Origin: Eledone cirrhosa
Lineage: Eukaryota
Assembly: GCA_964016885.1 (NCBI GenBank)
Contig: OZ024743.1
Coordinates: forward strand, 11,718,001-11,782,000
DNA: 64,000 bases
Direction of reading: 5' to 3'
In this document: piece by piece, positions 15,615 through 57,042 of the stretch
Layout: every line of letters begins with the position of its first letter
How positions within the stretch are numbered: position 1 is the stretch's first letter
Made by a program: the position numbers and the translations under genes
The notes under the pieces: model-generated
What the model was told of the DNA's origin: nothing
The model's input: only the letters and a program-made list of their open reading frames with translations
Databases searched by the model: none

Positions 15615-15901
15615 CCATGCTCTATCAGACATCTGCGTACAGCATGTGAACGAGCTAAACGAACCCTATCAAGCAATACAGAAGCTTCAGTAGAACTGGA
15701 TTCTCTCTATGAAGGCATTGATTTTTACTCGAAGATTACAATAACAGTCTAGCAGAAACAGATGAATTTACCTACAAACTGCAGGAAGCACAGAAATTCT
15801 GCTCTCCAATAATGTCGAAACTACACACATCATCTAATTCTAACAAAAATAATTCTACATCACAACCAACCAGTGGACCAACCATAGAAGAAATGGATTA
15901 A
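15615..15901 (+). pseudogene. hsp70: Hsp70 pseudogene fragment at the 5' edge of the array
   Basis: Matches gene copy 1 ~21615-21739, joined to 22587 onward (about 847 bp missing, 'ac' microhomology), ending ...EEMD-stop and followed by the 3' UTR; no 5' end or promoter. Confidence 0.93.
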
Positions 15902-16329
15902 GACATTTATTCGCTCATATACTTTTTCTAAAATACTGTAATATATCTGTAACTGTATAGTGTACTGTTCTCACATCTCACACAATATCACATTACATGA
16001 TTCTTGAAGATATTCTGGTTAATATCTTTTCAACAACGTCGTGTACTCTCATTATTTATTTTATATATAATATATTGTAAACAACTTCGAAACCTCATAT
16101 TATTTTTATATTTATTATAAACAATAAATTATATTTTCTTTTCCAACACTTTCGATGTTATCTTATTTTTGCTTATTCTTTGTTACATCTAAATGTTGCT
16201 ATTGTTATGTCATGCCCGGCCGCTTCCTTTTCGTACTGGTCCCCGTCGACCTCTCATGTGTCCTTAAATCTACATTTAAAGAATCTGAAAGCAAAAGGTT
16301 CGGCAACGTTATATGTCTTGATCACCAGA

Positions 16330-16856
16330 ACCGTGAGGTGTCCCAAATAGCAAAGCATTGTTCTAGTGTGAACAAGGATGTTGAGTGAAAATATGTCTGA
16401 GATAACTCAGGTGCAGGATCAGTTGCTCCGAAGAAAATGCTGGGACCTGGCATTATAAGAGGTTGATGAATCTGGAGAATAGGTGGAAACAAGAGACATC
16501 ATCCGCAGTTGACTAAATAGAGAGACCAACTGTCTATATTGACAGTTACAGGACCAAAGAAGCAATCAGAGAAAACATGTAAAAGCAGCTGGAGTGTTAG
16601 ATATATTTTCTTAGATGCTAAAATCTTCTGTTGAAGTTGGAGAAGAGTATTCTTACCAATAATCAATTAGGTAATACATGTGTTGTCATACCCAACAGCT
16701 GGTGTAACAGCATAATCTATAATTGCTACAGGGGAAAATGTGATGCTCTAGAAATGAGTAACTATAGAGGCCTAAACCTGGTGAGCAAAGTAATGGAAGT
16801 GATGGAGTGATAGCCTAACAAATTAGAGAGAGAGAGAGAGCGGGGGGAGGCGGGGT

Positions 16857-16901
<45 letters not shown>

Positions 16902-17708
16902 TATCAAATTTGATGAGATGCAATTTGGTTTTATACCAAGAAGGAGCACAACAGATATTTCCGAACTTGTGAGAGAATTACCGGAATAACACATAGTGAT
17001 GTTAACGTATCTATAACTTGCTTTGTTGATGGTAGCTGTTTATCATTTTTTGATATCTGCCTTTTATTATAGTCCTCAATACCATAACAGGTCAGTTTAT
17101 GGCCGGGTCACATATAAAAATCTTTAAGCTGGTGACCCACTTCTTATTGATGAATCTATGAAAGAGCTACAGAAAAGTCCCTATAGTAGAAACTGAACTT
17201 AGAGTCAGAGTAAACAAAGCAACAATTCAATGCTGCAGTTAGTAAGAAAGAAGACATGGCTCCGGAGCCATTAGGGAACTGGCTATGTTTTATATGTAGA
17301 ACATATGTAGATGTGAACTCTAACGAATGTACATAATGTAAAACATTGGTAGATAAGGGATGCAGTAGGGTTCTGGGCAGACAAACAGAAAATGTAGAGG
17401 ATTTACATGAATAATTATTTGTAAGAGACTGGGTGTAATAAACTTTCTTTAAACCATGTATGGACATATGAAGCGTATAGATGTAGATTGTGTGTGGAAT
17501 AGTGTTGGGTGTTCGAAGTAAAAGGAAGAAGTAGTAGACGGTCAAGGAAGACTGGACAGAAGATTTAGAGAGGTCTCAAAACGCAGAACGTGACAGAGGA
17601 GATGACGTGGGAATGTATTAGGTGAGAGGAAGTTGTATGGGAAAGGCATATCCCATCCTGGCAAGATTAGAGAATAGGACATAAATATATGATGATGATG
17701 ATGATGAT
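16330..17708 (+). mobile_element. Decayed RTE-like LINE relic in the array spacer, split by a (GA)n microsatellite; repeated at ~23.2, 30.8, 38.4, 46.0 and 53.5 kb
   Basis: Residual RT peptides CYRGKCDALEMSNYRGLNLVSKVMEV and KFDEMQFGFIPRRSTTDI; ends in a (GAT)n tail. Confidence 0.75.
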
Positions 17709-18370
17709 GGTGTGTGTATCTGTGTGCGTGTATATCATATGTAGTAACAAAATATATCGGCCCTGTATATAAACATAAGCGAGAAGAAACACATCTCTCC
17801 GCGAGGAAATTACTTGGTATATTTCTCTGGCACTGTACATCAGACACTCCATTATCACCCCGGTCATCAGAAATAGACTAAAATAGTACATTTTAAAAAA
17901 TTTGATGCTTATCTTCAAAATTTGCGCCTAATAAAAATTCTACTTTAGTTTTTCGTGTTTTTTATGTCTTCGGTGTTGTCAACCTCCAAAATGACAAAGT
18001 TTCCATCAATAACAAACCATCATATTTTATCCAGTAAAACATGTGTTGTGCAATTCCTTCATTTAAAAAAATGTTATGATATTAGGGAGATTTGACTGCT
18101 ATGTCTAGCGAGTCTGCACAGGTTCACATCTTGACATAATTATGATTTTATCGGCTGAAAAGGGAAATCATTTTGTTTATGAAACTGAGCTACGAATGTG
18201 TTAGGAAACTATGAAGTGATATAAAGGTGTCACCTTCGTCAGCGAGCGCGAAATTTTCAGTGAATGGGTTGATGTTCAGTGAATGGGTCTTTGCAAGTAA
18301 ACATGTATATACGTCACACCTGATACAATACAGAGTTCTTTGTGTATTGTCATAACTTCGATGAAAGTTA

Positions 18371-18413
18371 TCTATATATATATGTAAAACTGAGGGTGTG
18401 TGTGTGTGTGTGT

Positions 18414-18500
<87 letters not shown>

Positions 18501-18970
18501 TGTGTGTGTATGTGTGTGTGTCTATGAGTTTGATGCCTAAAACTCGAGAAGTAACCAAGGGAATTTTTTTCAGACTTTACATGTGTATTACTTATGTTTC
18601 AGGGAGTGTTATGCACATAAATTTAACCTTTTGATTCCCTACGGCCCGCATCAGGTGAAATACTGCGTTTTTTTTTCAGCATTTTAGGGTTGTTTTGAGG
18701 CGTTACGTCTGACCGATTTTTCCGAAATATCAAGGCATATTATGCACATAAAAAAAATTCATTTTCTTGATCCCTTAGGGCCCGTATTAGGTGAAAACCT
18801 GCATTTTCCCTTCTTCATCGAGGAAAATCTTAAAGGCTATCCAGCCATCAGAGTATTCGGTTTATTTTCTTTACATATTGTCCAGACAGGCAGTTTTTCC
18901 ACGATTAGGTCTGTTGGCGGCCCGCGTTCCAAAATACCTTATCCCGTGCAACGTCGGGTACCACTGCTAG
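18371..18970 (+). mobile_element. Non-autonomous Helitron-like element; copies at 26032-26589, 33632-34195, 41184-41755 and 48763-49332
   Basis: 5' A|TCTATATATA start, internal (GT)n, 3' imperfect GC hairpin CCCGTGCAACGTCGGG (18943-18958) followed by CTAG|T; no target-site duplication. Confidence 0.75.
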
Positions 18971-19479
18971 TATTTAATAAATTAGTAACATAGAGGCTTT
19001 GTGTTATTGTGGTTTATATATTTCATTTTCTATGTGATCAAGGTAAATCACTTACCCAGGGAACCATCACAAGACCATCATCATCATAATCAGCACTGTT
19101 ATACACTTACTGGTACACCCGCTTTCTCTGTTCACACTATATCAGGCACATCAAACTTCTTTTGCCTACACTCTACACAACAGTGACCACATCACTGAGC
19201 ACTTCACAAGTGAGTACAGACACAACAACCGAATCAACACCACAACACCACCAACCATCATAGCACCATATTTGCTATAATTGGTAATGAGGGCCGCCAC
19301 AGTCATTGATTCTTTCGCTCCTTCCTACATTCTGGGTGCTACATTAAATGTGAGGGCCACTGTTTCCCTAGCCGAACGGAATAAAAGACTAAAATACTGG
19401 CAATTATCGATATTATTTCCAGGTTGTGGCGTTGGAGACGTTTGGGGGTAACTGAACCGCTGGCAACAGAGCTCGTTTC

Positions 19480-19605
19480 ATAGTTTACGGCTAGCTTTAC
19501 CATGGAATCAGGTGTCGTCCACCGGGCTGCTCCCTTATTCCACCACCTTAACCCCGCTCCCACACGCAGTAAAGCTGCTAGTGTGTTGGCTTGCCTCAAA
19601 TGGTA
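19480..19605 (+). mobile_element. CRE-like retroelement 3' relic, present in each array unit
   Basis: gctgctagtgtgttggcttgcctcaaa (AASVLACLK) matches the C-terminus of the 4457 element. Confidence 0.5.
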
Positions 19606-20460
19606 TACGAGGGATGATCTGGTACCCATTATTGTGTGAGATCGATTTCCACACTTAGTGTTGATTTAATATTTTCTTTCGTTTTGAGTCCATATTTTCA
19701 TGTGAAATATTTAATTAAGTAATAGTGACATACCTGTAGCGAGGAAAATTTTTTCACGGTTGATTTTCCGAAAACTGCGGCCACCTGGGCATTGACCTAT
19801 GACCTGCGTGATATCACTTTCGTCTATGAAAGAATCTCGACGTCCAATTAAACATTTCTAAGTAACGAACCATCGTTAAAAAGATTAGCTGGGAATTCGG
19901 CTTGTCCAGTCTGCAAAGTTTCGCCTCTTTTCTCTGCAGGAAAAATTCGCTTATTACGAGATTTCACCATGAAACATTTTGTTTTGACAAATCCTTGCAT
20001 ATTTAAAAAATATATACATTTTTTCCCGCCAACGATGTAGAAGTAACCGTTCCACGTACACAGAGATAGATTTAATAACTCTATCCTATTGTACATTATC
20101 AATTGTATTTTTTGTGAAGTAAAGCTATTAATTAAATAAGTATTTTGATACCTGTCGTGTTTACATTTTCTCCGAACTTACCACAACAAATGGACTTCGC
20201 TTCATATATGTGTAACGGGGAATATTGACAGCTATGTCATTTGTATTTTTATTTCAATCTATCTATATTGTCAACATACTTGTTAGAGAAAAAAACTTTG
20301 CTATTATGTGATGTTATGTACATCGTTTATTTTGATATAATTTCACGAGCTACATTATCATAGTTTTAGGACAATGTTTTCACTGAACAGGTTATATTTA
20401 CTTAAATCTTCATATTTTCGAGCAACTATTCTATCGAAATTGATATTTTCAGCTGAAAGA

Positions 20461-20597
20461 AGTAATGGAACTATGTAGAGGTATCTAGAAAATTCGAGAA
20501 ACATGTAGATCATTACAGAATGTTGCAGAAATGGCTGGAAAATACTAGCGATGACGTCAAACTAGGAGGAAGAGGAGGTAACTCTCCAGTATAAATA
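20461..20597 (+). promoter_or_regulatory. Hsp70 copy 1 promoter: HSE array, CRE, TATA
   Basis: Perfect HSE aGAAaaTTCgaGAAa (20487-20501) within eight 10-bp-phased GAN units; TGACGTCA at 20552-20559; TATAAATA at 20590-20597. Confidence 0.88.
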
Positions 20598-20840
20598 TTT
20601 GAATCGCTTAGCTTGTCACTCAATATCTACACTAACAACTGCTGTAAACAACACGAGAAAGGAATCTTACTCGCGAAATATTTCTTCAACTTATACATTC
20701 TACGAAGCAAAAGTTATCTACATATCTTCGAGTTATATAACAGAAATACAAACTAACAACAAGAAAAGATAATCAAGAAGAAAGAAGTCGAACAAGCTAT
20801 TTATTTACATATTTGAAGAAGAGTACATAAATTAAGAATA

Positions 20841-22748
20841 ATGGTGAAAACGCCTGCTATTGGTATCGATCTGGGAACAACCTATTCTTGTGTAGGTGTG
20901 TTTCAACATGGCAAAGTAGAAATCATTGCCAACGACCAAGGAAACAGGACAACTCCAAGCTACGTGGCTTTCACGGAGGCCGAAAGACTGGTGGGCGATG
21001 CAGCGAAAAACCAAGCGACCCTCAACCCCGAGAACACTGTGTTTGATGCTAAACGTTTAATTGGACGCCACTTTAACGATACTTCCGTACAACAAGACAT
21101 GAAGCATTGGCCATTCGGAGTGGTGAACAAAAATGGTAACAAACCACATGTGCAAGTGGAGTACAAGGGAGAGCAAAAGCAGTTTTCGCCCGAAGAGATT
21201 AGTTCGATGGTATTGAGTAAAATGAAGGAGACAGCCGAGTCTTACCTGGGTTGTGAAGTTAAAGACGCAGTAGTAACAGTACCAGCTTACTTTAACGACT
21301 CTCAAAGACAGGCAACGAAAGATGCAGCCAGTATAGCTGGTCTGAATGTGTTGAGAATTGTGAACGAACCAACGGCCGGCGCGCTCGCTTACGGTCTCGA
21401 GAAAAACTTATCTGGTGAGAAGAACGTTCTAATCTTTGACTTGGGTGGTGGTACATTCGACGTTTCCATCTTGGCAATTGATCAGGGATCTCTTTTCGAG
21501 GTGAAAGCTACAGCTGGTGACACACATCTGGGTGGAGAAGACTTCGATAACCGGCTCGTTGATCACTTTGCCGACGAATTCAAACGTAAACACAAGAAAC
21601 ATATCAAAGAAAATCCACGTTCTATCAGACGTCTGCGTACAGCATGCGAACGAGCCAAACGAACCCTATCGAGCAGTACAGAAGCTTCAGTAGAACTGGA
21701 TTCTCTCTATGAAGGCATTGATTTTTACTCGAAGATTACCAGAGCACGCTTCGAGGATCTTTGCAGTGACCTCTTCCGATCCACTTTAGAACCAGTTGAG
21801 AAAGCACTGCGAGACGCCAAGTTTGATAAATCGAGCATTCATGACATTGTGTTGGTCGGTGGATCAACACGCATTCCAAAGATCCAGAAATTACTTCAGG
21901 ACTTCATGCAAGGAAAGCCGATCAACAAATCTATCAATCCAGACGAAGCTGTTGCCTACGGAGCTGCCGTACAAGCTGCAGTTCTCTCTGGAGACATGAG
22001 TGATTCCATCAAAGACGTACTACTTGTAGATGTAGCGCCTTTGTCGCTTGGAATAGAAACGGCTGGTGGTGTGATGACTAAACTTATCGAGCGTAACAGC
22101 AGAATCCCGTGTAAAACATCCGATGTATTCACTACCTATTCAGATAACCAGCCGGGTGTGTCTATTCAGGTATTCGAAGGAGAAAGAGCAATGACAAAAG
22201 ACAACAACTGCCTCGGACGTTTCGAATTGAGTGGCATTCCACCAGCTCCTAGAGGTGTACCTCAAATAGAAGTCTCTTTTGATATGGATGCCAATGGAAT
22301 ACTTAACGTTTCTGCTGTTGACAAAAGTACCGGCAAAAGCAACAAAATTACCATCACCAACGACAAAGGACGTTTGAGCAAAGAGGAAATCGAAAGAATG
22401 ATCAATGAAGCTAAACAATACGAGGCAGAAGACGAAAAACAACGACAACGTATTGCAGCTAAGAATCAGTTGGAACAATACATATTCAACGTGAAACAAG
22501 CACTCAATACAGACAACGATAAACTATCCGAGCAAGTTAAAAATCAGGCTCTTGATATGTGTAACAAAACGTTAGATTGGATAGACAATAACAGTCTAGC
22601 AGAAACAGATGAATTTACCTACAAACTGCAGGAAGCACAGAAATTCTGCTCTCCAATAATGTCGAAACTACACACATCATCTAATTCTAACAAAAATAAT
22701 TCCACATCACAACCAACCAGTGGACCAACGATTGAAGAAATCGACTAA
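20841..22748 (+). CDS. hsp70: Inducible-type cytosolic Hsp70, copy 1 (A212, C-terminus EEID)
   Basis: 635-aa intronless ORF with Hsp70 signatures [22 protein letters not shown] and [15 protein letters not shown], cytosolic RARFEDL, GSLFEV serine insertion, and no GGMP repeats. Confidence 0.99.
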
Positions 22749-22969
22749 GACATTTATTCACTGATAAACTTTTTCTAAAATACTGTAATATATCTGTAAC
22801 TGTATAGTCTACTGTTCTCACATCTCACACAATATCACATTACATGATTCTTGAAGATATTCTGGTTAATATCTTTTCAACAACGTCGTGTACTCTCATT
22901 ATTTATTTTATATATAATATATTGTAAACAACTTCGAAACCTCATATTATTTTTATATTTATTATAAAC

Positions 22970-22975
22970 AATAAA
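22970..22975 (+). terminator. Poly(A) signal of Hsp70 copy 1; equivalents at 30589, 38172, 45755 and 53332
   Basis: AATAAA ~220 bp after the stop, followed by T/GT-rich sequence; ATTTA motifs upstream in the 3' UTR. Confidence 0.7.
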
Positions 22976-23710
22976 TTATATTTTCTTTTCCAACACTTTC
23001 GATGTTATCTTATTTTTGCTTATTCTTTGTTACATCTAAATGTTGCTATTGTTATGTCATGCCCGGCCGCTTCCTTTTCGTACTGGTCCCCGTCGACCTC
23101 TCATGTGTCCTTAAATCTACATTTAAAGAATCTGAAAGCAAAAGGTTCGGCAACGTTCTATGTCTTGATCACCAGAACCGTGAGGTGTCCCAAATAGCAA
23201 AGCATTGTTCTAGTGTGAACAAGGATGTTGAGTGAAAATATGTCTGAGATAACTCAGGTGCAGGATCAGTTGCTCCGAAGAAAATGCTGGGACTGGGCAT
23301 TATAAGAGGTTGATGAATCTGGAGAATAGGTGGAAACAAGAGACATCATCCGCAGTTGACTAAATAGAGAGACCAACTGTCTATATTGACAGTTACAGGA
23401 CCAAAGAAGCAATCAGAGAAAACATGTAAAAGCAGCTGGAGTGTTAGATATATTTTCTTAGATGCTAAAATCTTCTGTTGAGGTTGGAGTCGAGTATTCT
23501 TACCAATAATCAATTAGGTAATACATCTGTTGTCATACCCAACAGCTGGTGTAACAGCATAATCTATAATTGCTACAGGGGAAAATGTGATGCTCTAGAA
23601 ATGAGTAACTATAGAGGCCTAAACCTGGTGAGCAAAGTAATGGAAGTGATGGAGTGATAGCCTAACTATTTAGAGAGAGAAAGAGAGAGAGAGAGAGATT
23701 GTGTGTGAGA

Positions 23711-23798
<88 letters not shown>

Positions 23799-25214
23799 CA
23801 AATTTGATGAGATGCAATTTGGTTTTATACCAAGAAGGAGCACAACAGATATTTCCGAACTTGTGAGAGAATTACCGGAATAATACATAGTGATGTTAAC
23901 GTATCTATAACTTGCTTTGTTGATGGTAGCTGTTTATCATTTTTTGATATCTGCCTTTTATTATAGTCCTCAATACCATAACAGGTCAGTTTATGGCCGG
24001 GTCACATATAAAAATCTTTAAGCTGGTGACCCACTTCTTATTGATGAATCTATGAAAGAGCTACAGAAAAGTCCCTATAGTAGAAACTGAACTTAGAGTC
24101 AGAGTAAACAAAGCAACAATTCAATGTTGCAGTTAGTAAGAAAGAAGACATGGCCCCGGAGCCATTAGGGAACTGGCTATGTTTTATATGTAGAACATAT
24201 GTAGATGTGAACTCTAACGAATGTACATAATGTAAAACATTGGTAGATAAGGGATGCAGTAGGGTTCTGGGCAGACAAACAGAAAATGTAGAGGATTTAC
24301 ATGAATAATTATTTGTAAGAGACTGGGTGTAATAAACTTTCTTTAAACCATGTATGGACATATGAAGCGTATAGATGTAGATTGTGTGTGGAAAAGTGTC
24401 GGGTGTTCGAAGTAAAAGGAAGAAGTAGTAGACGGTCAAGGAAGACTGGACAGAAGATTTAGAGAGGTCTCAAAACGCAGAACGTGACAGAGGAGATGAC
24501 GTGGGAATGTATTAGGTGAGAGGAAGTTGTATGGGAAAGGTATATCCCATCCTGGCAAGATTAGAGAATAGGACATAAATATATGATGATGATAATGGTG
24601 TGTGTATCTGTGTGCGTGTATATCATATGTAGTAACAAAATATATCGGCCCTGTATATAAACATAAGCGAGAAGAAACACATCTCTCCGCGAGGAAATTA
24701 CTTGGTATATTTCTCTGGCACTGTACATCAGACACTCCATTATCACCCCGGTCATCAGAAATAGACTAAAATAGTACATTTTAAAAAATTTGATGCTTAT
24801 CTTCAAAATTTGCGCCTAATAAAAATTCTACTTTAGTTTTTCGTGTTTTTTATGTCTTCGGTGTTGTCAACCTCCAAAATGACAAAGTTTCCATCAATAA
24901 CAAACCATCATATTTTATCCAGTAAAACATGTGTTGTGCAATTCCTTCATTTAAAAAAATGTTATGATATTAGGGAGATTTGACTGCTATGTCTAGCGAG
25001 TCTGCACAGGTTCACATCTTGACATAATTATGATTTTATCGGCTGAAAAGGGAAATCATTTTGTTTATGAAATTGAGCTACGAATGTGTTAGGAAACTAT
25101 GAAGTGATATAAAGGTGTCACCTTCGTCAGAGAGTGCGAAATTTTCAGTGAATGGGTTGATGTTCAGCCTGTAGAACAACCTGTGGCTTCCTCAGTTTAG
25201 AAGTGCTCCACATT

Positions 25215-25700
25215 AGCATTGCACTGAGAATGGGAAATGATGTTTGTGGATTACTAAAATGTCACTTTGGTTGGCCTCACGACTCCACAGCTGTCCATGA
25301 TTTGTTTGAATGCTGTTCATTTCTCTGGCCATACCGTACTAAACGTAATTATTAAGCGGACCTTGACTCGGGTAAATATTCCTTCAATTCTGTAGCCGGC
25401 TGGATTGTCCAGAGTTGATTGAAAGACATCAGACGGTTTTACTCTGGGTAAGAGGTAGATATGTTGCAATAGCTTGATACTTTCCTCAATAAAGTTTCTT
25501 TCACACTATCAAGCGGTTACCATGAAGCCGACCTTGATGGTCTCATAGATAAGTTACCATTGTGATTCGGCGTTCGAGTCACCAATATGTCTGAGATTTT
25601 GACATATCAAACGGCCATCTCTTTATTCTCGAGTCCCGAACACAAAGGGAAGCAAGACTCATAAATTATCTGCTCCCACATTAAATTTAGCAATTGTAGA
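25215..25700 (+). mobile_element. Decayed CRE-like RLE-domain relic in the spacer; also at ~32.9, 40.4 and 48.0 kb, partly deleted at 55.7 kb, absent from the first unit
   Basis: Residual ALRMGNDVC...HTVLNVIIKRTLTRVNIPSIL*PAGLSRVD*KTSDGFTL, homologous to 4669-5183. Confidence 0.72.
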
Positions 25701-25766
25701 GTTCATACTGACTAGCTAATATGTAATAGTCGACTGTCTCACACACCGACCACTTTGGGTCTATCT

Positions 25767-25858
<92 letters not shown>

Positions 25859-26060
25859 CACTCTCCCTCTTTAGTCTACTTCTCTCTCAGCCAGGTCAAC
25901 GAAATTTATCCCATCAAGAGAAATTTGGTAAATGCATCTTAAATAGAGTCTTTGCAAGTAAACATGTATATACGTCACACCTGATACAATACAGAGTTCT
26001 TTGTGTATTGTCATAACTTCGATGAAAGTTATCTATATATATATGTAAAACTGAGGGTGT

Positions 26061-26135
<75 letters not shown>

Positions 26136-28079: not shown

Positions 28080-28216
28080 AGTAATGGAACTATGTAGAGG
28101 TATCTAGAAAATTCGAGAAACATGTAGATCATTACAGAATGTTGCAGAAATGGCTGGAAAATACTAGCGATGACGTCAAACTAGGAGGAAGAGGAGGTAA
28201 CTCTCCAGTATAAATA
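28080..28216 (+). promoter_or_regulatory. Hsp70 copy 2 promoter: HSE array, CRE, TATA
   Basis: Same sequence as copy 1; CRE 28171-28178, TATA 28209-28216. Confidence 0.88.
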
Positions 28217-28459
28217 TTTGAATCGCTTAGCTTGTCACTCAATATCTACACTAACAACTGCTGTAAACAACACGAGAAAGGAATCTTACTCGCGAAATAT
28301 TTCTTCAACTTATACATTCTACGAAGCAAAAGTTATCTACATATCTTCGAGTTATATAACAGAAATACAAACTAACAACAAGAAAAGATAATCAAGAAGA
28401 AAGAAGTCGAACAAGCTATTTATTTACATATTTGAAGAAGAGTACATAAATTAAGAATA

Positions 28460-31374: not shown

Positions 31375-31434
<60 letters not shown>

Positions 31435-40974: not shown

Positions 40975-41006
<32 letters not shown>

Positions 41007-41215: not shown

Positions 41216-41291
<76 letters not shown>

Positions 41292-43245: not shown

Positions 43246-43382
43246 AGTAATGGAACTATGTAGAGGTATCTAGAAAATTCGAGAAACATGTAGATCATTA
43301 CAGAATGTTGCAGAAATGGCTGGAAAATACTAGCGATGACGTCAAACTAGGAGGAAGAGGAGGTAACTCTCCAGTATAAATA
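43246..43382 (+). promoter_or_regulatory. Hsp70 copy 4 promoter: HSE array, CRE, TATA
   Basis: CRE 43337-43344, TATA 43375-43382. Confidence 0.88.
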
Positions 43383-43625
43383 TTTGAATCGCTTAGCTTG
43401 TCACTCAATATCTACACTAACAACTGCTGTAAACAACACGAGAAAGGAATCTTACTCGCGAAATATTTCTTCAACTTATACATTCTACGAAGCAAAAGTT
43501 ATCTACATATCTTCGAGTTATATAACAGAAATACAAACTAACAACAAGAAAAGATAATCAAGAAGAAAGAAGTCGAACAAGCTATTTATTTACATATTTG
43601 AAGAAGAGTACATACATTAAGAATA

Positions 43626-45533: not shown

Positions 45534-46530
45534 GACATTTATTCACTGATAAACTTTTTCTAAAATACTGTAATATATCTGTAACTGTATAGTCTACTGT
45601 TCTCACATCTCACACAATATCACATTACATGATTCTTGAAGATATTCTGGTTAATATCTTTTCAACAACGTCGTGTACTCTCATTATTTATTTTATATAT
45701 AATATATTGTAAACAACTTCGAAACCTCATATTATTTTTATATTTATTATAAACAATAAATTATATTTTCTTTTCCAACACTTTCGATGTTATCTTATTT
45801 TTGCTTATTCTTTGTTACATCTAAATGTTGCTATTGTTATGTCATGCCCGGCCGCTTCCTTTTCGTACTGGTCCCCGTCGACCTCTCATGTGTCCTTAAA
45901 TCTACATTTAAAGAATCTGAAAGCAAAAGGTTCGGCAACGTTATATGTCTTGATCACCAGAACCGTGAGGTGTCCCAAATAGCAAAGCATTGTTCTAGTG
46001 TGAACAAGGATGTTGAGTGAAAATATGTCTGAGATAACTCAGGTGCAGGATCAGTTGCTCCGAAGAAAATGCTGGGACTGGGCATTATAAGAGGTTGATG
46101 AATCTGGAGAATAGGTGGAAACAAGAGACATCATCCGCAGTTGACTAAATAGAGAGACCAACTGTCTATATTGACAGTTACAGGACCAAAGAAGCAATCA
46201 GAGAAAACATGTAAAAGCAGCTGGAGTGTTAGATATATTTTCTTAGATGCTAAAATCTTCTGTTGAGGTTGGAGTCGAGCATTCTTACCAATAATCAATT
46301 AGGTAATACATCTGTTGTCATACCCAACAGCTGGTGTAACAGCATAATCTATAATTGCTACAGGGGAAAATGTGATGCTCTAGAAATGAGTAACTATAGA
46401 GGCCTAAATCTGGTGGGCAGAGTAATGGAAGTGATGGAGTGATAGCCTAACAAATTAGAGAGAGAGAGAGAGAGAGAGAGAGCGGGGGGGGGGAGAGTGA
46501 GAGAGAGCGGGGGGGGGAGAGTGAGAGAGG

Positions 46531-46585
<55 letters not shown>

Positions 46586-48553
46586 CAAATTTGATGAGAT
46601 GCAATTTGGTTTTATACCAAGAAGGAGCACAACAGATATTTCCGAACTTGTGAGAGAATTACCGGAATAACACATAGTGATGTTAACGTATCTATAACTT
46701 GCTTTGTTGATGGTAGCTGTTTATCATTTTTTGATATCTGCCTTTTATTATAGTCCTCAATACCATAACAGGTCAGTTTATGGCCGGGTCACATATAAAA
46801 ATCTTTAAGCTGGTGACCCACTTCTTATTGATGAATCTATGAAAGAGCTACAGAAAAGTCCCTATAGTAGAAACTGAACTTAGAGTCAGAGTAAACAAAG
46901 CAACAATTCAATGCTGCAGTTAGTAAGAAAGAAGACATGGCTCCGGAGCCATTAGGGAACTGGCTATGTTTTATATGTAGAACATATGTAGATGTGAACT
47001 CTAACGAATGTACATAATGTAAAACATTGGTAGATAAGGGATGCAGTAGGGTTCTGGGCAGACAAACAGAAAATGTAGAGGATTTACATGAATAATTATT
47101 TGTAAGAGACTGGGTGTAATAAACTTTCTTTAAACCATGTATGGACATATGAAGCGTATAGATGTAGATTGTGTGTGGAAAAGTGTCGGGTGTTCGAAGT
47201 AAAAGGAAGAAGTAGTAGACGGTCAAGGAAGACTGGACAGAAGATTTAGAGAGGTCTCAAAACGCAGAACGTGACAGAGGAGATGACGTGGGAATGTATT
47301 AGGTGAGAGGAAGTTGTATGGGAAAGGTATATCCCATCCTGGCAAGATTAGAGAATAGGACATAAATATATGATGATGATGATGGTGTGTGTATCTGTGT
47401 GCGTGTATATCATATGTAGTAACAAAATATATCGGCCCTGTATATAAACATAAGCGAGAAGAAACACATCTCTCCGCGAGGAAATTACTTGGTATATTTC
47501 TCTGGCACTGTACATCAGACACTCCATTATCACCCCGGTCATCAGAAATAGACTAAAATAGTACATTTTAAAAAATTTGATGCTTATCTTCAAAATTTGC
47601 GCCTAATAAAAATTCTACTTTAGTTTTTCGTGTTTTTTATGTCTTCGGTGTTGTCAACCTCCAAAATGACAAAGTTTCCATCAATAACAAACCATCATAT
47701 TTTATCCAGTAAAACATGTGTTGTGCAATTCCTTCATTTAAAAAAATGTTATGATATTAGGGAGATTTGACTGCTATGTCTAGCGAGTCTGCACAGGTTC
47801 ACATCTTGACATAATTATGATTTTATCGGCTGAAAAGGGAAATCATTTTGTTTATGAAACTGAGCTACGAATGTGTTAGGAAACTATGAAGTGATATAAA
47901 GGTGTCACCTTCGTCAGCGAGCGCGAAATTTTCAGTGAATGGGTTGATGTTCAGCCTGTAGAACAACCTGTGGCTTCCTCAGTTTAGAAGTGCTCCACAT
48001 TAGCATTGCACTGAGAATGGGAAATGATGTTTGTGGATTACTAAAATGTCACTTTGGTTGGCCTCTCGACTCCACAGCTGTCCATGATTTGTTTGAATGC
48101 TGTTCATTTCTCTGGCCATACCGTACTAAACGTAATTATTAAGCGGACCTTGACTCGGGTAAATATTCCTTCAATTCTGTAGCCGGCTGGATTGTCCAGA
48201 GTTGATTGAAAGACATCAGACGGTTTTACTCTGGGTAAGAGGTAGATATGTTGCAATAGCTTGATACTTTCCTCAATAAAGTTTCTTTCACACTATCAAG
48301 CGGTTACCATGAAGCCGACCTTGATGGTCTCATAGATAAGTTACCATTGTGATTCGGCGTTCGAGTCACCAATATGTCTGAGATTTTGACATATCAAACG
48401 GCCATCTCTTTATTCTCGAGTCCCGAACACAAAGGGAAGCAAGACTCATAAATTATCTGCTCCCACATTAAATTTAGCAATTGTAGAGTTCATACTGACT
48501 AGCTAATATGTAATGGTCAACTGTCTCACACACCGACCACTTTGGGTCTATCT

Positions 48554-48585
<32 letters not shown>

Positions 48586-48794
48586 CCGTCACTCTCCCTC
48601 TTTAGTCTACTTCTCTCTCAGCCAGGTCAACGAAATTTATCCCATCAAGAGAAATTTGGTAAATGCATCTTAAATAGAGTCTTTGCAAGTAAACATGTAT
48701 ATACGTCACACCTGATACAATACAGAGTTCTTTGTGTATTGTCATAACTTCGATGAAAGTTATCTATATATATATGTAAAACTGAGGGTGTCTC

Positions 48795-48868
<74 letters not shown>

Positions 48869-50822
48869 TGTATGTGTGTGTGTCTATGAGTTTGATGCCT
48901 AAAACTCGAGAAGTAACCAAGGGAATTTTTTTCAGACTTTACATGTGTATTACTTATGTTTCAGGGAGTGTTATGCACATAAATTTAACCTTTTGATTCC
49001 CTACGGCCCGCATCAGGTGAAATACTGCGTTTTTTTTTCAGCATTTTAGGGTTGTTTTGAGGCGTTACGTCTGACCGATTTTTCCGAAATATCAAGGCAT
49101 ATTATGCACATAAAAAAAATTCATTTTCTTGATCCCTTAGGGCCCGTATTAGGTGAAAACCTGCATTTTCCCTTCTTCATCGAGGAACATCTTAAAGGTT
49201 ATCCAGCCATCAGAGTATTCGGTTTATTTTCTTTACATATTGTCCAGACATGCAGTTTTTCCACGATTAGGTCTGTTGGCGGCCCGCGTTCCAAAATACC
49301 TTATCCCGTGCAACGTCGGGTACCACTGCTAGTATTTAATAAATTAGTAACATAGAGGCTTTGTGTTATTGTGGTTTATATATTTCATTTTCTATGTGAT
49401 CAAGGTAAATCACTTACCCAGGGAACCATCACAAGACCATCATCATCATAATCAGCACTGTTATACACTTACTGGTACACCCGCTATCTCTGTTCACACT
49501 ATATCAGGCACATCAAACTTCTTTTGCCTACACTCTACACAACAGTGACCACATCACTGAGCACTCCACAAGTGAGTACAGACACAACAACCGAATCAAC
49601 ACCACAACACCACCAACCATCATAGCACCATACTTGCTATAATTGGTAATGAGGGCCGCCACAGTCATTGATTCTTTCGCTCCTTCCTACATTCTGGGTG
49701 CTACATTAAATGTGAGGGCCACTGTTTCCCTAGCCGAACGGAATAAAAGACTAAAATACTGGCAATTATCGATATTATTTCCAGGTTGTGGCGTTGGAGA
49801 CGTTTGGGGGTAACTGAACCGCTGGCAACAGAGCTCGTGTCATAGTTTACGGCTAGCTTTACCATGGAATCAGGTGTCGTCCACCGGGCTGCTCCCTTAT
49901 TCCACCACCTTAACCCCGCTCCCACACGCAGTAAAGCTGCTAGTGTGTTGGCTTGCCTCAAATGGTATACGAGGGATGATCTGGTACCCATTATTGTGTG
50001 AGATCGATTTCCACACTTAGTGTTGATTTAATATTTTCTTTCGTTTTGAGTCCATATTTTCATGTGAAATATTTAATTAAGTAATAGTGACATACCTGTA
50101 GCGAGGAAAATTTTTTCACGGTTGATTTTCCGAAAACTGCGGCCACCTGGGCATTGACCTATGACCTGCGTGATATCACTTTCGTCTATGAAAGAATCTC
50201 GACGTCCAATTAAACATGTCTAAGTAACGAACCATCGTTAAAAAGATTAGCTGGGAATTCGGCTTGTCCAGTCTGCAAAGTTTCGCCTCTTTTCTCTGCA
50301 GGAAAAATTCGCTTATTACGAGATTTCACCATGAGACATTTTGTTTTGACAAATCCTTGCATATTTAAAAAATATATACATTTTTTCCCGCCAACGATGT
50401 AGAAGTAACCGTTCCAAGTACACAGAGATAGATTTAATAACTCTATCCTATTGTACATTATCAATTGTATTTTTTGTGAAGTAAAGCTATTAATTAAATA
50501 AGTATTTTGATACCTGTCGTGTTTACATTTTCTCCGAACTTACCACAACAAATGGACTTCGCTTCATATATGTGTAACGGGGAATATTGACAGCTATGTC
50601 ATTTGTATTTTTATTTCAATCTATCTATATTGTCAACATACTTGTTAGAGAAAAAAACTTTGCTATTATGTGATGTTATGTACATCGTTTATTTTGATAT
50701 AATTTCACGAGCTACATTATCATAGTTTTAGGACAATGTTTTCACTGAACAGGTTATATTTACTTAAATCTTCATATTTTCGAGCAACTATTCTATCGAA
50801 ATTGATATTTTCAGCTGAAAGA

Positions 50823-50959
50823 AGTAATGGAACTATGTAGAGGTATCTAGAAAATTCGAGAAACATGTAGATCATTACAGAATGTTGCAGAAATGGCTGG
50901 AAAATACTAGCGATGACGTCAAACTAGGAGGAAGAGGAGGTAACTCTCCAGTATAAATA
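50823..50959 (+). promoter_or_regulatory. Hsp70 copy 5 promoter: HSE array, CRE, TATA
   Basis: CRE 50914-50921, TATA 50952-50959. Confidence 0.88.
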
Positions 50960-51202
50960 TTTGAATCGCTTAGCTTGTCACTCAATATCTACACTAACAA
51001 CTGCTGTAAACAACACGAGAAAGGAATCTTACTCGCGAAATATTTCTTCAACTTATACATTCTACGAAGCAAAAGTTATCTACATATCTTCGAGTTATAT
51101 AACAGAAATACAAACTAACAACAAGAAAAGATAATCAAGAAGAAAGAAGTCGAACAAGCTATTTATTTACATATTTGAAGAAGAGTACATACATTAAGAA
51201 TA

Positions 51203-53110
51203 ATGGTGAAAACGCCTGCTATTGGTATCGATCTGGGAACAACCTATTCTTGTGTAGGTGTGTTTCAACATGGCAAAGTAGAAATCATTGCCAACGACCA
51301 AGGAAACAGGACAACTCCAAGCTACGTGGCTTTCACGGAGGCCGAAAGACTGGTGGGCGATGCAGCGAAAAACCAAGCGACCCTCAACCCCGAGAACACT
51401 GTGTTTGATGCTAAACGTTTAATTGGACGCCACTTTAACGATACTTCCGTACAACAAGACATGAAGCATTGGCCATTCGGAGTGGTGAACAAAAATGGTA
51501 ACAAACCACATGTGCAAGTGGAGTACAAGGGAGAGCAAAAGCAGTTTTCGCCCGAAGAGATTAGTTCGATGGTATTGAGTAAAATGAAGGAGACAGCCGA
51601 GTCTTACCTGGGTTGTGAAGTTAAAGACGCAGTAGTAACAGTACCAGCTTACTTTAACGACTCTCAAAGACAGGCAACGAAAGATGCAGCCAGTATAGCT
51701 GGTCTGAATGTGTTGAGAATTGTGAACGAACCAACGGCCGGCGCGCTCGCTTACGGTCTCGAGAAAAACTTATCTGGTGAGAAGAACGTTCTAATCTTTG
51801 ACTTGGGTGGTGGTACATTCGACGTTTCCATCTTGACAATTGATCAGGGATCTCTTTTCGAGGTGAAAGCTACAGCTGGTGACACACATCTGGGTGGAGA
51901 AGACTTCGATAACCGGCTCGTTGATCACTTTGCCGACGAATTCAAACGTAAACACAAGAAACATATCAAAGAAAATCCACGTTCTATCAGACGTCTGCGT
52001 ACAGCATGCGAACGAGCCAAACGAACCCTATCGAGCAGTACAGAAGCTTCAGTAGAACTGGATTCTCTCTATGAAGGCATTGATTTTTACTCGAAGATTA
52101 CCAGAGCACGCTTCGAGGATCTTTGCAGTGACCTCTTCCGATCCACTTTAGAACCAGTTGAGAAAGCACTGCGAGACGCCAAGTTTGATAAATCGAGCAT
52201 TCATGACATTGTGTTGGTCGGTGGATCAACACGCATTCCAAAGATCCAGAAATTACTTCAGGACTTCATGCAAGGAAAGCCGATCAACAAATCTATCAAT
52301 CCAGACGAAGCTGTTGCCTACGGAGCTGCCGTACAAGCTGCAGTTCTCTCTGGAGACATGAGTGATTCCATCAAAGACGTACTACTTGTAGATGTAGCGC
52401 CTTTGTCGCTTGGAATAGAAACGGCTGGTGGTGTGATGACTAAACTTATCGAGCGTAACAGCAGAATCCCGTGTAAAACATCCGATGTATTCACTACCTA
52501 TTCAGATAACCAGCCGGGTGTGTCTATTCAGGTATTCGAAGGAGAAAGAGCAATGACAAAAGACAACAACTGCCTCGGACGTTTCGAATTGAGTGGCATT
52601 CCACCAGCTCCTAGAGGTGTACCTCAAATAGAAGTCTCTTTTGATATGGATGCCAATGGAATACTTAACGTTTCTGCTGTTGACAAAAGTACCGGCAAAA
52701 GCAACAAAATTACCATCACCAACGACAAAGGACGTTTGAGCAAAGAGGAAATCGAAAGAATGATCAATGAAGCTAAACAATACGAGGCAGAAGACGAAAA
52801 ACAACGACAACGTATTGCAGCTAAGAATCAGTTGGAACAATACATATTCAACGTGAAACAAGCACTCAATACAGACAACGATAAACTATCCGAGCAAGTT
52901 AAAAATCAGGCTCTTGATATGTGTAACAAAACGTTAGATTGGATAGACAATAACAGTCTAGCAGAAACAGATGAATTTACCTACAAACTGCAGGAAGCAC
53001 AGAAATTCTGCTCTCCAATAATGTCGAAACTACACACATCATCTAATTCTAACAAAAATAATTCCACATCACAACCAACCAGTGGACCAACGATTGAAGA
53101 AATGGACTAA
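51203..53110 (+). CDS. hsp70: Inducible-type cytosolic Hsp70, copy 5 (T212, EEMD)
   Basis: 635-aa ORF; protein identical to copy 4. Confidence 0.99.
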
Positions 53111-54084
53111 GACATTTATTCACTGATAAACTTTTTCTAAAATACTGTAATATATCTGTAACTGTATAGTCTACTGTTCTCACATCTCACACAATATCAC
53201 ATTACATGATTCTTGAAGATATTCTGGTTAATATCTTTTCAACAACGTCGTGTACTCTCATTATTTATTTTATATATAATATATTGTAAACAACTTCGAA
53301 ACCTCATATTATTTTTATATTTATTATAAACAATAAATTATATTTTCTTTTCCAACACTTTCGATGTTATCTTATTTTTGCTTATTCTTTGTTACATCTA
53401 AATGTTGCTATTGTTATGTCATGCCCGGCCGCTTCCTTTTCGTACTGGTCCCCCTCGACCTCTCATGTGTCCTTAAATCTACATTTAAAGAATCTGAAAG
53501 CAAAAGGTTCGGCAACGTTATATGTCTTGATCACCAGAACCGTGAGGTGTCCCAAATAGCAAAGCATTGTTCTAGTGTGAACAAGGATGTTGAGTGAAAA
53601 TATGTCTGAGATAACTCAGGTGCAGGATCAGTTGCTCTGAAGAAAGTGCTGGGACTGGGCATTATAAGAGGTTGATGAATCTGGAGAATAGGTGGAAACA
53701 AGAGACATCATCCGCAGTTGACTAAATAGAGAGACCAACTGTCTATATTGACAGTTACAGGACCAAAGAAGCAATCAGAGAAAACATGTAAAAGCAGCTG
53801 GAGTGTTAGAAATATTTTCTTAGATGCTAAAATCTTCTGTTGAGGTTGGAGTCGAGTATTCTTACCAATAATCAATTAAGCAATACATCTGTTGTCATAC
53901 CCAACAGCTGGTGTAACAGCATAATCTATAATTGCTACAGGGGAAAATGTGATGCTCTAGAAATGAGTAACTATAGAGGCCTAAACCTGGTGAGCAAAGT
54001 AATGGAAGTGATGGAGTGATAGCCTAACTATTTAGAGAGAGAAAGAGAGAGAGAGAGAGATTGTGTGTGAGAGAGAGAGAGCGA

Positions 54085-54182
<98 letters not shown>

Positions 54183-55999
54183 CAAATTTGATGAGATGCA
54201 ATTTGGTTTTATACCAAGAAGGAGCACAACAGATATTTCCGAACTTGTGAGAGAATTACCGGAATAACACATAGTGATGTTAACGTATCTATAACTTGCT
54301 TTGTTGATGGTAGCTGTTTATCATTTTTTGATATCTGCCTTTTATTATAGTCCTCAATACCATAACAGGTCAGTTTATGGCCGGGTCACATATAAAAATC
54401 TTTAAGCTGGTGACCCACTTCTTATTGATGAATCTATGAAAGAGCTACAGAAAAGTCCCTATAGTAGAAACTGAACTTAGAGTCAGAGTAAACAAAGCAA
54501 CAATTCAATGCTGCAGTTAGTAAGAAAGAAGACATGGCTCCGGAGCCATTAGGGAACTGGCTATGTTTTATATGTAGAACATATGTAGATGTGAACTCTA
54601 ACGAATGTACATAATGTAAAACATTGGTAGATAAGGGATGCAGTAGGGTTCTGGGCAGACAAACAGAAAATGTAGAGGATTTACATGAATAATTATTTGT
54701 AAGAGACTGGGTGTAATAAACTTTCTTTAAACCATGTATGGACATATGAAGCGTATAGATGTAGATTGTGTGTGGAAAAGAGTCGGGTGTTCGAAATAAA
54801 AGGAAGAAGTAGTAGACGGTCAAGGAAGACTGGACAGAAGATTTAGAGAGGTCTCAAAACGCAGAACGTGACAGAGGAGATGACGTGGGAATGTATTAGG
54901 TGAGAGGAAGTTGTATGGGAAAGGCATATCCCATCCTGGCAAGATTAGAGAATAGGACATAAATATATGATGATGATGATGGTGATGATGATGATGATGG
55001 TGTGTGTATGTGTGTTCGTGTATATCATATGTAGTAACAAATTATATCGACCCTGTATATAAATATGAGCGAGAAGAAACATCTCTCCGCGAGGAAATTA
55101 CTGGGTATATTTCTCTGGCACTGTACATCAGACACTCCATTATCACCCCGGTCATCAGAAATAGACTAAAATAGTATTTGAGATACTAAAAAAGGTACAT
55201 TATTAAGAATTTGACGCTATTCCTCAAAATTTGCTTCAAATTCTACTTTAGTTTTTCGTGTTTTCTATGTCTTCGTTGTTGTCAACCTCCAAGATGACAA
55301 ATTTTCCATCAATAAGAAACGTTTTATTTTCTTCCCATCATATTTTATCCAGTAAAACATGTGTTGTGCAATTCCTTCATTTAAAAAATGTTATGATATT
55401 AGGGTGATTTGACTGCTACGTCTAGCGAGTCTGCACAGGTTCACATTTTGACTTAATTATGATATTATCGGCTGAAAAGGGGAATCATTTTGTTTATGAA
55501 AGTATATGAAACTGAGCTGCGAATGTGTTAGGAAACTGTGAAGTGATATAAAGGTGTCACCTTCGTCAGCGAGCGCGAAATTTTCAGTGAATGGGTTGAT
55601 GTTCAGCCTGTAGAACAACCTGTGGCTTCCTCAGTTTAGAAGTGCTCCACATTAGCATTGCACTGAGAATGGGAAATGATGTTTGTGGATTACTGAAATG
55701 TCACTTTGGTTGGCCTCTCGACTCCACAGCTGTCCATGATTTGTTTGAATGCCCTTCATTTCTCTGGCCTTACTATTGTGATTCGGCGTTCGAGTCACCA
55801 ATATGTCTGAGATTTTGACATATCAAACGGCCAACTCTTTATTCTCGAGTACTGGACACAAAGGGAAGCAACACTCATAAATAATCTACTCCCACATTAA
55901 ATTTAGCAATTGTTGAGTTAATACTGACTAGCTAATATGTAGCGGTCAACTGTCTCACACACCGACCACTTTGGCTCTTTTTGGCTCTCTCTCTCTCTG

Positions 56000-56086
<87 letters not shown>

Positions 56087-56357
56087 ATATCTCTCTCTCT
56101 CCCTCTTTCTCTACTGCCACCTCTCTCTCAGCCAGGTAAACACCTCTTGATTTCGTTCCTCCAGTATAAACAATATGTAACGACAAAACATCACTATGGG
56201 CCTGGCTAACGCCTCAGCCAGTTGACCGTACCGTCTCAAAAGTTTGTTTGTTCATTTCTTTTGGCATGCCAGTCCAGCTAACGCAGCTCTTCTCGCAATC
56301 TTTGTTAATAAATTATATTAAAACGTTGTAAAGTCTTATGATGTTACAAACTTTTAA

Positions 56358-57042
56358 ATCTTCGAGTCATATAACAGAAATACAAACTAACAACAAGAAA
56401 AGATAATCAAGAAGAAAGAAGTCGAACAAGCTATTTATTTACATATTTGAAGAAGAATACATAAATTAAGAATAATGGTGAAACACCTGCTATTGGTATC
56501 GATCTGGGAACAACCTATTCTTGTGCAGGTGTGTTTCAACATGGCAAAGTAGAAATCATTGCCAACGACCAAGGAAACAGGACAACTCCAAGCTACGTGG
56601 CTTTCACGGAGGCCGAAAGACTGGTGGGTGATGCAGCGAAAAACCAAGCGACCCTCAACCCCGAGAACACTGTGTTTGATGCTAAACGTTTAATTGGACG
56701 CCACTTTAACGATACTTCCGTACAACAAGACATGAAGCATTGGCCATTCGGAGTGGTGAACAAAAATGGTAACAAACCACATGTGCAAGTGGAGTACAAG
56801 GGAGAGCAAAAGCAGTTTTCGCCCGAAGAGATTAGTTCGATGGTATTGAGTAAAATGAAGGAGACAGGCGAGTCTTACCTGGGTTGTAAAGTTAAAGACG
56901 CAGTAGTAACAGTACCAGCTTACTTTAACGACTCTCAAAGACAGGCAACGAAAGATTTATTACAAACAATAAATTATATTTTATTTTACAACAATTTCGA
57001 TGTTATATTATTTTTGCTTATTCTTTGTTACATCTAAATGTT
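56358..57042 (+). pseudogene. hsp70: Hsp70 pseudogene at the 3' edge of the array
   Basis: Partial 5' UTR, ATG at 56475 with a 1-bp deletion just after it, coding homology to ...QRQATKD (56956), then a jump to the poly(A) region of the 3' UTR (~1.63 kb deleted). The HSE array is absent. Confidence 0.95.

What the first reader, a model, noticed from the sequence alone, without database searches (positions are those of the whole stretch)
15615..57042. Recently amplified or actively homogenised ~7.6-kb tandem array of inducible Hsp70 genes
Seen: five intact genes differ at only two amino-acid positions. About 5.7 kb of spacer per unit, mostly dead transposon sequence, is also nearly identical, differing mainly in microsatellite length and scattered SNPs. 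Near-identity of non-functional spacer cannot be explained by protein-level selection, so amplification is very recent or maintained by unequal crossing-over (rDNA/histone-like concerted evolution). Known: Hsp70 expansions occur in Drosophila and bivalves. Inference: a dosage-adjustable heat-stress locus, probably copy-number variable and collapsed in short-read assemblies. I cannot tell whether it has been described for this species.
Basis: partly seen in the sequence, partly recalled or inferred. Interest (0 to 1): 0.75.

Follow-up and report, generated by a model that had tools for sequence, protein, structure and literature searches.

The report
Self-homogenising octopus heat-shock gene array
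Five nearly identical copies of a heat-shock (Hsp70) gene sit head to tail in an octopus-type genome, and their patchwork of differences suggests they are likely kept alike by repeated DNA exchange between copies, a process already known for these genes in flies and mammals.

Summary
Observation confirmed. Five intact, intronless 635-aa Hsp70 genes repeat every 7.58-7.62 kb, each with a TATA box and a perfect heat-shock element. The coding sequences differ at 2 of 1908 bases. The closest proteins are from Octopus (91%). Four results favour ongoing turnover over one recent burst: (1) the array edges are 3-8% diverged against 0.35-0.8% inside; (2) 57 of 105 informative site pairs are incompatible with a tree; (3) the gene is more uniform than the spacer (3/2650 versus 38/3335 variable sites); (4) O. 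vulgaris and Argonauta also carry clustered copies that resemble each other more than other species' copies. A sixth, frameshifted copy lies in a segmental duplication 298 kb upstream. Contig depths from one public run (gene about 80, edge pseudogene about 30) fit the assembly's 6:2 ratio, but a clean single-copy control could not be obtained. About half of the spacer is shown to be dispersed repeat or microsatellite. Heat induction, copy-number variation and adaptive dosage are untested, and the region is duplication-prone anyway. Known process, apparently undescribed in octopods; the scan had no note here, only similar cases on other DNA (shark hsp30).

The parts
15615..15901 (+). Left-edge Hsp70 pseudogene: CDS 775-899 fused to CDS 1745-1908 by an internal deletion of about 845 bp; no 5' half, no promoter
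   Evidence: 94.4% and 97-97.6% identity to the intact units; the deletion junction is in X1 contigs (depth 30.7) and in 3 reads of X7
15902..18279 (+). 3'UTR and spacer of the left-edge partial unit; divergence from units 1-4 falls from 1.3% to 0-0.5% towards the array interior; ends in a deletion of about 780 bp
18288..25948 (+). Unit 1 (7661 bp)
25949..33548 (+). Unit 2 (7600 bp)
33549..41100 (+). Unit 3 (7552 bp)
41101..48679 (+). Unit 4 (7579 bp)
48680..55773 (+). Unit 5 (7094 bp to the point where collinearity breaks)
20488..20500 (+). Perfect three-unit heat-shock element (GAAnnTTCnnGAA), about 100 bp upstream of a TATA box at 20590; the same at 28107, 35690, 43273 and 50850
   Evidence: 5 matches in the window, one per unit; 0.97 expected by chance. 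The five are copies of one site, so they count once. The chromosome C2 paralogue has one at a similar distance from its ATG
20841..22748 (+). Hsp70 copy 1 (Ala212, ends EEID)
   Evidence: Pfam PF00012 E=1.4e-254
28460..30367 (+). Hsp70 copy 2 (Ala212, ends EEMD)
36043..37950 (+). Hsp70 copy 3 (Thr212, ends EEID)
43626..45533 (+). Hsp70 copy 4 (Thr212, ends EEMD)
51203..53110 (+). Hsp70 copy 5 (Thr212, ends EEMD)
26025..26859 (.). High-copy dispersed repeat in the spacer (83-90% identical to copies on many chromosomes). Other, older repeat fragments in the same spacer: 23194-23680, 25438-25760, 26910-27960
55000..56074 (+). Right edge: older spacer type, 5% diverged from units 1-4 up to 55773, then 6-8% after a deletion
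56134..56358 (.). Dispersed repeat standing where the promoter of the last gene would be
   Evidence: 85-92% matches elsewhere in the genome
56358..57051 (+). Right-edge pseudogene: last 117 nt of the 5' leader plus CDS 1-483 with an early frameshift, fused to a 3'UTR remnant; no heat-shock element
   Evidence: 98.7% over 600 bp, then 91% over 100 bp; out-of-frame translation; no element found there

Best explanation
This is a head-to-tail array of five intact, intronless Hsp70 genes, each with its own heat-shock element and so predicted to be stress-inducible, and it is likely an older cluster kept uniform by repeated exchange between copies rather than the product of one recent burst. Unequal crossing-over in the 7.6-kb register would copy or delete whole units, spacer included, and leave older sequence and pseudogenes at the two edges (inferred). 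Shorter gene conversion together with purifying selection would keep the promoter-to-3'UTR stretch still more uniform than the spacer (inferred). The likely effect is more templates for a fast HSF-driven chaperone response (inferred from Drosophila; untested here).
For: Shown. (1) Edge-to-centre gradient: left pseudogene 5.6% and 2.4-3.0% diverged, right spacer 5-8%, against inner spacers at 0.35-0.78% and CDS at 0.06%. (2) Mosaic variants among 5 units: 15 informative sites in 7 patterns, 57 of 105 pairs four-gamete incompatible, at least 6 recombination events, and neighbouring sites share a pattern more than by chance (permutation p=0.016). (3) The left partial unit carries the inner spacer type, while its duplicate 298 kb upstream is closer to the old type (2.1% from unit 5, 3.3-3.9% from the others), as expected if the array later overwrote it. 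(4) Gene region 3/2650 variable sites versus spacer 38/3335 (Fisher p=3e-7) or upstream spacer alone 14/1944 (p=0.001). CpG decay does not explain this (2 of 38 sites), and synonymous sites do diverge in the long run (dS 0.38, dN 0.03 to the C2 paralogues). (5) Copies group by lineage: this genome's 7 proteins form one clade (99/97), the 8 annotated O. vulgaris and O. sinensis genome proteins another (100/98); 0-1 aa differences inside the array, 3-12 among those 8, 49-73 between lineages. Six O. vulgaris proteins have accessions within CAI9736037-047 on one chromosome, and four Argonauta genes (GAB1605542, 543, 545, 546) give two proteins 635/637 identical, which implies clusters. (6) In run X1, contigs over six-copy sequence have depth 75.7-81.9, left-pseudogene contigs (two copies in the assembly) 29.5-31.2, ratio 2.6 against 3.0 expected. 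(7) Lineage-A serine, no introns, heat-shock element and TATA box are present. Known: copy number tracked Hsp70 expression and thermotolerance in four D. melanogaster strains (PMC2257928, abstract).
Against: No clean single-copy depth control was obtained. The 6:2 ratio would be the same if the upstream block were the other haplotype; only incidental contigs from other loci (9 values, median 10.9, maximum 16.9) favour about 13-15 per copy. X1 may be the assembly's own sample, and its library is not on record. Haplotype switching in a diploid assembly could mimic mosaic variants. At synonymous sites alone the deficit is weak (0 seen, 3.0-4.8 expected; p=0.049 and 0.008), promoter and UTRs can be under selection, the region borders were set after viewing the alignment, and sites in one tract are not independent. 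Lineage-specific clustering also fits repeated birth and death of copies. Cluster layout in other octopods is inferred from accession order only. The neighbourhood is duplication-prone with or without Hsp70 (44% of 664 kb). Induction by heat was not tested.
Confidence: 0.72

Rival explanations
1. One very recent amplification (or a short run of serial duplications) made the five units, with no continuing exchange; they are alike only because they are young.
For: Inner spacers are under 1% apart and most single-unit differences are scattered substitutions and microsatellite lengths. The upstream segmental duplicate is equally young: 35 mismatches in 12.8 kb of flank.
Against: A burst gives star-like or nested variants, but 57 of 105 pairs are incompatible. 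The edges are 3-8% diverged. Other octopods also have lineage-specific clusters.
Confidence: 0.12
2. Assembly artefact: haplotypes are stacked, so that true copy number per haplotype is lower and the mosaic pattern is produced by the assembler.
For: The upstream block begins right at a contig start (gap at C4:11402306-505) and is collinear with the region before the window. Units 1 and 3 share alleles against 2, 4 and 5 at four sites. The depth ratio 2.6 is slightly below 3.0.
Against: No N lies between 11402506 and 11942000, so both blocks are on one gap-free stretch. The array's 3' flank has no second copy in 722 kb or in the genome search. The block's left part is only 90-94% identical to its counterpart, gaps included. 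Gene contigs are 2.6 times as deep as the edge pseudogene and about 7 times the median of incidental other-locus contigs.
Confidence: 0.08
3. The array is real and exchanging sequence, but its copy number is a neutral by-product of a duplication-prone region; selection needs only one or two good copies. This rival concerns why the array exists and does not exclude the mechanism in the best explanation.
For: The same 722 kb holds a duplication of about 100 kb, a 58-kb satellite and tandem arrays with 2.6-3.5 kb units in which no gene-like ORF was seen; 44% of the flanking 664 kb is duplicated. Three decayed copies accompany the five intact ones.
Against: All five inner copies are intact with their heat-shock elements, dN/dS is about 0.08, and clusters recur in O. 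vulgaris and Argonauta, which argues for recurrent retention of several copies.
Confidence: 0.35

Closest known systems
Drosophila virilis-group tandem hsp70 cluster (as described in PMC3071340, Discussion passages)
   Same: [quoted passage not shown]
   Different: Here the whole 7.6-kb unit, including 5.7 kb of spacer, is shared. No inverted pair was found in this array. It is a mollusc.
Stratiomys singularior hsp70 cluster (PMC3071340, abstract, section 5, passages)
   Same: Four tandem copies 4.7-5.9 kb apart, coding sequence homogenised by conversion, whole-gene deletions attributed to unequal recombination, transposon fragments in spacers.
   Different: Its intergenic regions share no significant homology; here they are 99% identical. 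Polymorphism between individuals was shown there and is untested here.
Mammalian HSPA1A/HSPA1B (PMC5865164, abstract and 12 of 32 passages)
   Same: Intronless inducible Hsp70 paralogues more alike within than between species, explained by gene conversion plus purifying selection.
   Different: Two genes in an old fixed arrangement; lineage B rather than lineage A in the scheme of PMC8423806; no turnover of whole units.
Metazoan cytosolic HSP70 lineage A (PMC8423806, 12 of 15 passages); database names 'HSP70 B2-like' and 'HSP68-like'
   Same: Extra serine in the ATPase domain; best named hits are mollusc and arthropod B2/68-like proteins at 75-91%.
   Different: The C-terminal motif reads EEMD or EEID rather than EEVD; EEMD is also found in Octopus, oyster and abalone proteins.

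Membership tests
Hsp70 family (PF00012) | Full-length match to the HSP70 profile | tested here: met
   E=1.4e-254, profile positions 1-597 of 599
Metazoan cytosolic HSP70 lineage A | Extra serine in the ATPase domain | tested here: met
   One-residue insertion at the serine relative to this genome's intron-containing HSC70-like gene; criterion from PMC8423806
Metazoan cytosolic HSP70 lineage A | Placement in clade 1 of a metazoan-wide tree | not tested
   The tree held 24 rows: 7 from this genome and 17 of the 120 listed hits, no lineage-B rows
Cytosolic Hsp70 | C-terminal EEVD motif | tested here: inconclusive
   EEMD in 3 of 5 copies and EEID in 2 of 5; variants of the motif, binding untested
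Heat-inducible hsp70 gene | Intronless, TATA box, proximal nGAAn array | tested here: met
   Single ORF, TATA at 20590, perfect three-unit element; motif definition recalled from established knowledge
Heat-inducible hsp70 gene | Transcript rises on heat shock | not testable with these tools
   No controlled expression data
Concertedly evolving tandem gene array | Paralogues more alike within than between species | tested here: met
   0-1 aa within the array versus 48-63 aa to Octopus and Argonauta proteins; O. vulgaris and O. sinensis copies are not resolved from each other
Concertedly evolving tandem gene array | Recombination or conversion signal among copies | tested here: met
   57 of 105 pairs incompatible, Rm at least 6, tract clustering p=0.016; rests on one assembly
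Concertedly evolving tandem gene array | Edges more diverged than the interior | tested here: met
   3-8% versus under 1%
Concertedly evolving tandem gene array | Copy-number variation between haplotypes or individuals | not tested
   No calibrated depth in a second individual; the one candidate single-copy restriction tag checked lay in a high-copy repeat

The most novel reading that the evidence does not exclude
Octopods run inducible Hsp70 as a lineage-wide, self-homogenising dosage array whose copy number varies between individuals, while the extreme C-terminal co-chaperone-binding tail escapes homogenisation: EEMD and EEID variants coexist in this array, and tail-less 623-aa paralogues ending at the same codon exist in this genome and in two Octopus species, each grouping with its own lineage's full-length copies.
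Probability: 0.15. Interest if true: 0.55.

Novelty: new member of a known kind. Interest (0 to 1): 0.3.

Why it matters
It is a clear molluscan example of a process known from fly and mammal hsp70 genes, with three layers readable in 41 kb: old edges, young whole-unit turnover and an even more uniform gene body. Practically, single-primer qPCR of 'HSP70' used as an octopus stress marker would sum several near-identical genes, and short-read assemblies would likely collapse the locus. If copy number varies with thermal tolerance it would be a directly testable candidate locus for heat resilience in a cephalopod. Nothing here is mechanistically new.

Tried and rejected
No RNA holder listed by the run search; this blank is not evidence either way. 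A single-copy read-depth control was planned but no result was obtained, so absolute copy number stays uncalibrated. A 255-bp restriction tag of matching size and GC, considered as a control for run X7, lies in a high-copy repeat and was dropped. Run X5 (another organism label) holds the gene only at depth about 2 and was not used. Lower mutation rate through CpG depletion was rejected as the reason for gene uniformity (2 of 38 spacer sites are CpG-type). Extreme synonymous constraint was rejected (dS 0.38 to C2 paralogues). Pfam found nothing for four other ORFs tested, including the 231-aa ORF at 60791. That both CDS differences are non-synonymous was not treated as a signal: two sites are too few. 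No absolute age was estimated because no substitution rate came from any call. No structure prediction was run; the protein is a standard Hsp70. The species was not identified; 'octopod' rests on protein similarity. Eight paper searches (listings seen: 20 of 46, 25 of 33, 14 of 14, 20 of 43, 4 of 4, 10 of 80, 8 of 8, 2 of 2) showed no title or abstract opening that describes an octopod hsp70 cluster; subscription journals and supplements were not seen.
Full report
What is there. The window lies at C4:11718001-11782000 of a 3.0-Gb animal genome. Five 635-aa ORFs on the + strand start at 20841, 28460, 36043, 43626 and 51203, 7577-7619 bp apart. They match Pfam HSP70 over the whole profile. The closest named full-length proteins are from Octopus sinensis and O. 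vulgaris (90-91%) and Argonauta (89%), then bivalve and other 'HSP70 B2/68-like' proteins at 75-79%, so the animal is an octopod; the species was not pursued. The genes have no introns, a TATA box at -251 and one perfect GAAnnTTCnnGAA element per unit, the only five in the window. They carry the extra ATPase-domain serine that PMC8423806 gives as the mark of lineage A, in which no gene was shown to be constitutive (12 of 15 passages read).

The CDSs differ at 2 of 1908 bases, Ala/Thr212 and Ile/Met634. Spacers differ by scattered substitutions, microsatellite length and a few indels. Genome searches show dispersed repeats at 23194-23680, 25438-25760, 26025-26859 and 26910-27960; with microsatellites this is about 2.9 of 5.7 kb, a lower bound. 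That these are transposon remnants is inferred, not tested.

The edges are older than the interior. On the left, a pseudogene joins CDS 775-899 (94.4% identical) to CDS 1745-1908 (2.4-3.0% diverged); divergence from units 1-4 then falls through 1.3% in the 3'UTR and 1.0-1.6% in the near spacer to 0-0.5% further on. On the right, unit 5's spacer is 5% diverged with its own indels and 6-8% beyond a deletion, followed by a repeat and a promoter-less, frameshifted pseudogene. That pseudogene is only 1.3% diverged over 600 bp, so the right edge is not uniformly old. Inner spacers are 0.35-0.78% apart.

The units are mosaics. With four microsatellite stretches masked, 15 sites are informative among the five units. 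They fall in 7 patterns, 57 of 105 pairs fail the four-gamete test, at least 6 exchanges are needed, and neighbouring sites share a pattern more often than by chance (p=0.016). A single burst would not give this. An assembly that switches between haplotypes could, and only reads spanning the array can exclude that.

The gene is more uniform than the spacer: 3 variable sites in 2650 bp from promoter to 3'UTR, against 38 in 3335 bp of spacer (p=3e-7), 14 in 1944 bp for the upstream spacer alone (p=0.001), or 37 in 4552 bp with unit 5 left out (p=4e-5). CpG decay is not the cause, and synonymous sites are free to change over longer times (dS 0.38, dN 0.03 against the C2 paralogues). The synonymous-only test is weak (0 seen, 3.0-4.8 expected), and the borders were chosen after seeing the alignment. 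I read this as conversion plus purifying selection, the explanation given for mammalian HSPA1A/B (PMC5865164, abstract and 12 of 32 passages), but selection on promoter and UTRs could carry much of it.

Other octopods look the same. In a tree of 24 proteins (7 from this genome, 17 chosen from the 120 listed hits; C-terminal tails trimmed), this genome's seven form one clade and the eight annotated O. vulgaris and O. sinensis genome proteins another. Six O. vulgaris accessions fall within a run of eleven on one chromosome, and four Argonauta genes with near-consecutive accessions encode two proteins 635/637 identical. Clustering is inferred from accession order; their DNA was not seen. Clustered, lineage-uniform copies therefore seem to be a general octopod state, by homogenisation or by repeated re-amplification.

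Is it real? A sixth copy lies 298 kb upstream in a 33-kb duplicate that also includes the 5' flank and the left pseudogene; it has a 2-bp frameshift. Both blocks lie on one gap-free stretch, the array's 3' flank is single, and the upstream block has its own rearrangements. Against this, the block's homology runs leftwards to a contig start. In run X1, contigs over six-copy sequence have depth 75.7-81.9, over eight-copy sequence 87.3-97.3, and over left-pseudogene-specific sequence 29.5-31.2: 13, 11-12 and 15 per assembly copy (for the first, the 97.3 value and the last). This fits the assembly and shows no sign of many collapsed extra copies. It cannot by itself separate a true duplicate from the other haplotype; nine incidental contigs from other loci (median 10.9, maximum 16.9) favour the former, but they are not a proper control and X1 may be the source sample. 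The pseudogene's deletion junction also appears in 3 reads from another sample (X7). A clean single-copy control was not obtained.

How it likely works. Mispairing in the 7.6-kb register at meiosis adds or removes whole units and spreads variants inward, leaving edges behind; shorter conversion and selection keep the gene near-identical; copies that lose their promoter or leave the array decay. Each intact copy would be switched on by heat-shock factor through its element, so more copies would give a faster or larger response, as copy number did in four D. melanogaster strains (PMC2257928, abstract and one passage). The exchange mechanism is inferred from sequence pattern; induction, copy-number variation and benefit are untested. 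The surrounding 664 kb is 44% duplicated, satellites and young repeats included, so the copy number need not be adaptive.

Comparison and novelty. Tandem hsp70 clusters homogenised by conversion and reshaped by unequal crossing-over are described in Stratiomys and the D. virilis group, the latter with 3' flanks near identical for over 1600 bp (PMC3071340: abstract, section 5 and 10 passages read). Hemizygosity in molluscs was linked to HSP70-12, not to this subfamily (10.1101/2020.09.15.298695, 12 of 14 passages). Octopus HSP70 is used as a qPCR stress marker (PMC11851374, 12 of 15 passages). Eight searches showed no paper on an octopod hsp70 cluster (listings only); supplements were not opened and gene-family tables in genome papers may list the copies. 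Verdict: a real, well-resolved new member of a known kind; interest 0.3.

Noticed in passing
G000:C4:11418149-11451410 (L073, L001-L004): A 33-kb segmental duplicate of the window's 5' flank, left pseudogene and one whole Hsp70 unit, 298 kb upstream. Its Hsp70 has a 2-bp frameshift at codon 19 but keeps its heat-shock element. Patchier homology continues leftwards to the assembly gap.
   Followed up: yes
L008:2724-4595 and 8025-9896 (C2:179.32-179.33 Mb): A tandem pair of 623-aa Hsp70 genes, 91% identical to the array, that stop at codon 624 and lack the EEVD-type tail; a decayed tail remnant follows the stop. O. vulgaris and O. sinensis also have 623-aa forms ending at the same place, but these group with their own 635-aa copies: convergent loss, or an old tail-less form whose body is homogenised.
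   Followed up: partly
window 20694-22849, run X4: Contigs of a second sample cover only the transcribed part, at depth 1100-10000 against 10.5 or less elsewhere. This looks like RNA, but the library is not on record and contigs cannot give levels. Both letters at codon 634 are present, and 10%-divergent contigs that may be the C2 paralogues appear at depth 67-99.
   Followed up: partly
G000:C4:11491198-11721365: A duplication of about 100 kb whose two copies flank a 58-kb satellite with a 47-bp unit (11597913-11655595), directly upstream of the window.
   Followed up: partly
G000:C4:11820639-11838961 and 11477466-11486825: Other young tandem arrays (units of 2.6-3.5 kb, 96-99% identical) with no gene-like ORF in a quick scan.
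   Followed up: partly
window 60791-61486: A single-copy 231-aa ORF with a hydrophobic N-terminus and no Pfam match; possibly a secreted-protein exon.
   Followed up: partly
window 18257-18290: The deletion junction between the left partial unit and unit 1 carries a short direct repeat of nearby sequence (13 bp, read by eye), as in template-switch repair.
   Followed up: no
L012 and L013 (C8:27.0 Mb and 9.78 Mb); L010; L011: Two intron-containing HSC70-like genes (one ending in GGMP repeats and EEVD), a 552-bp Hsp70 fragment on C3 at 95% and an older decayed copy on C2.
   Followed up: partly
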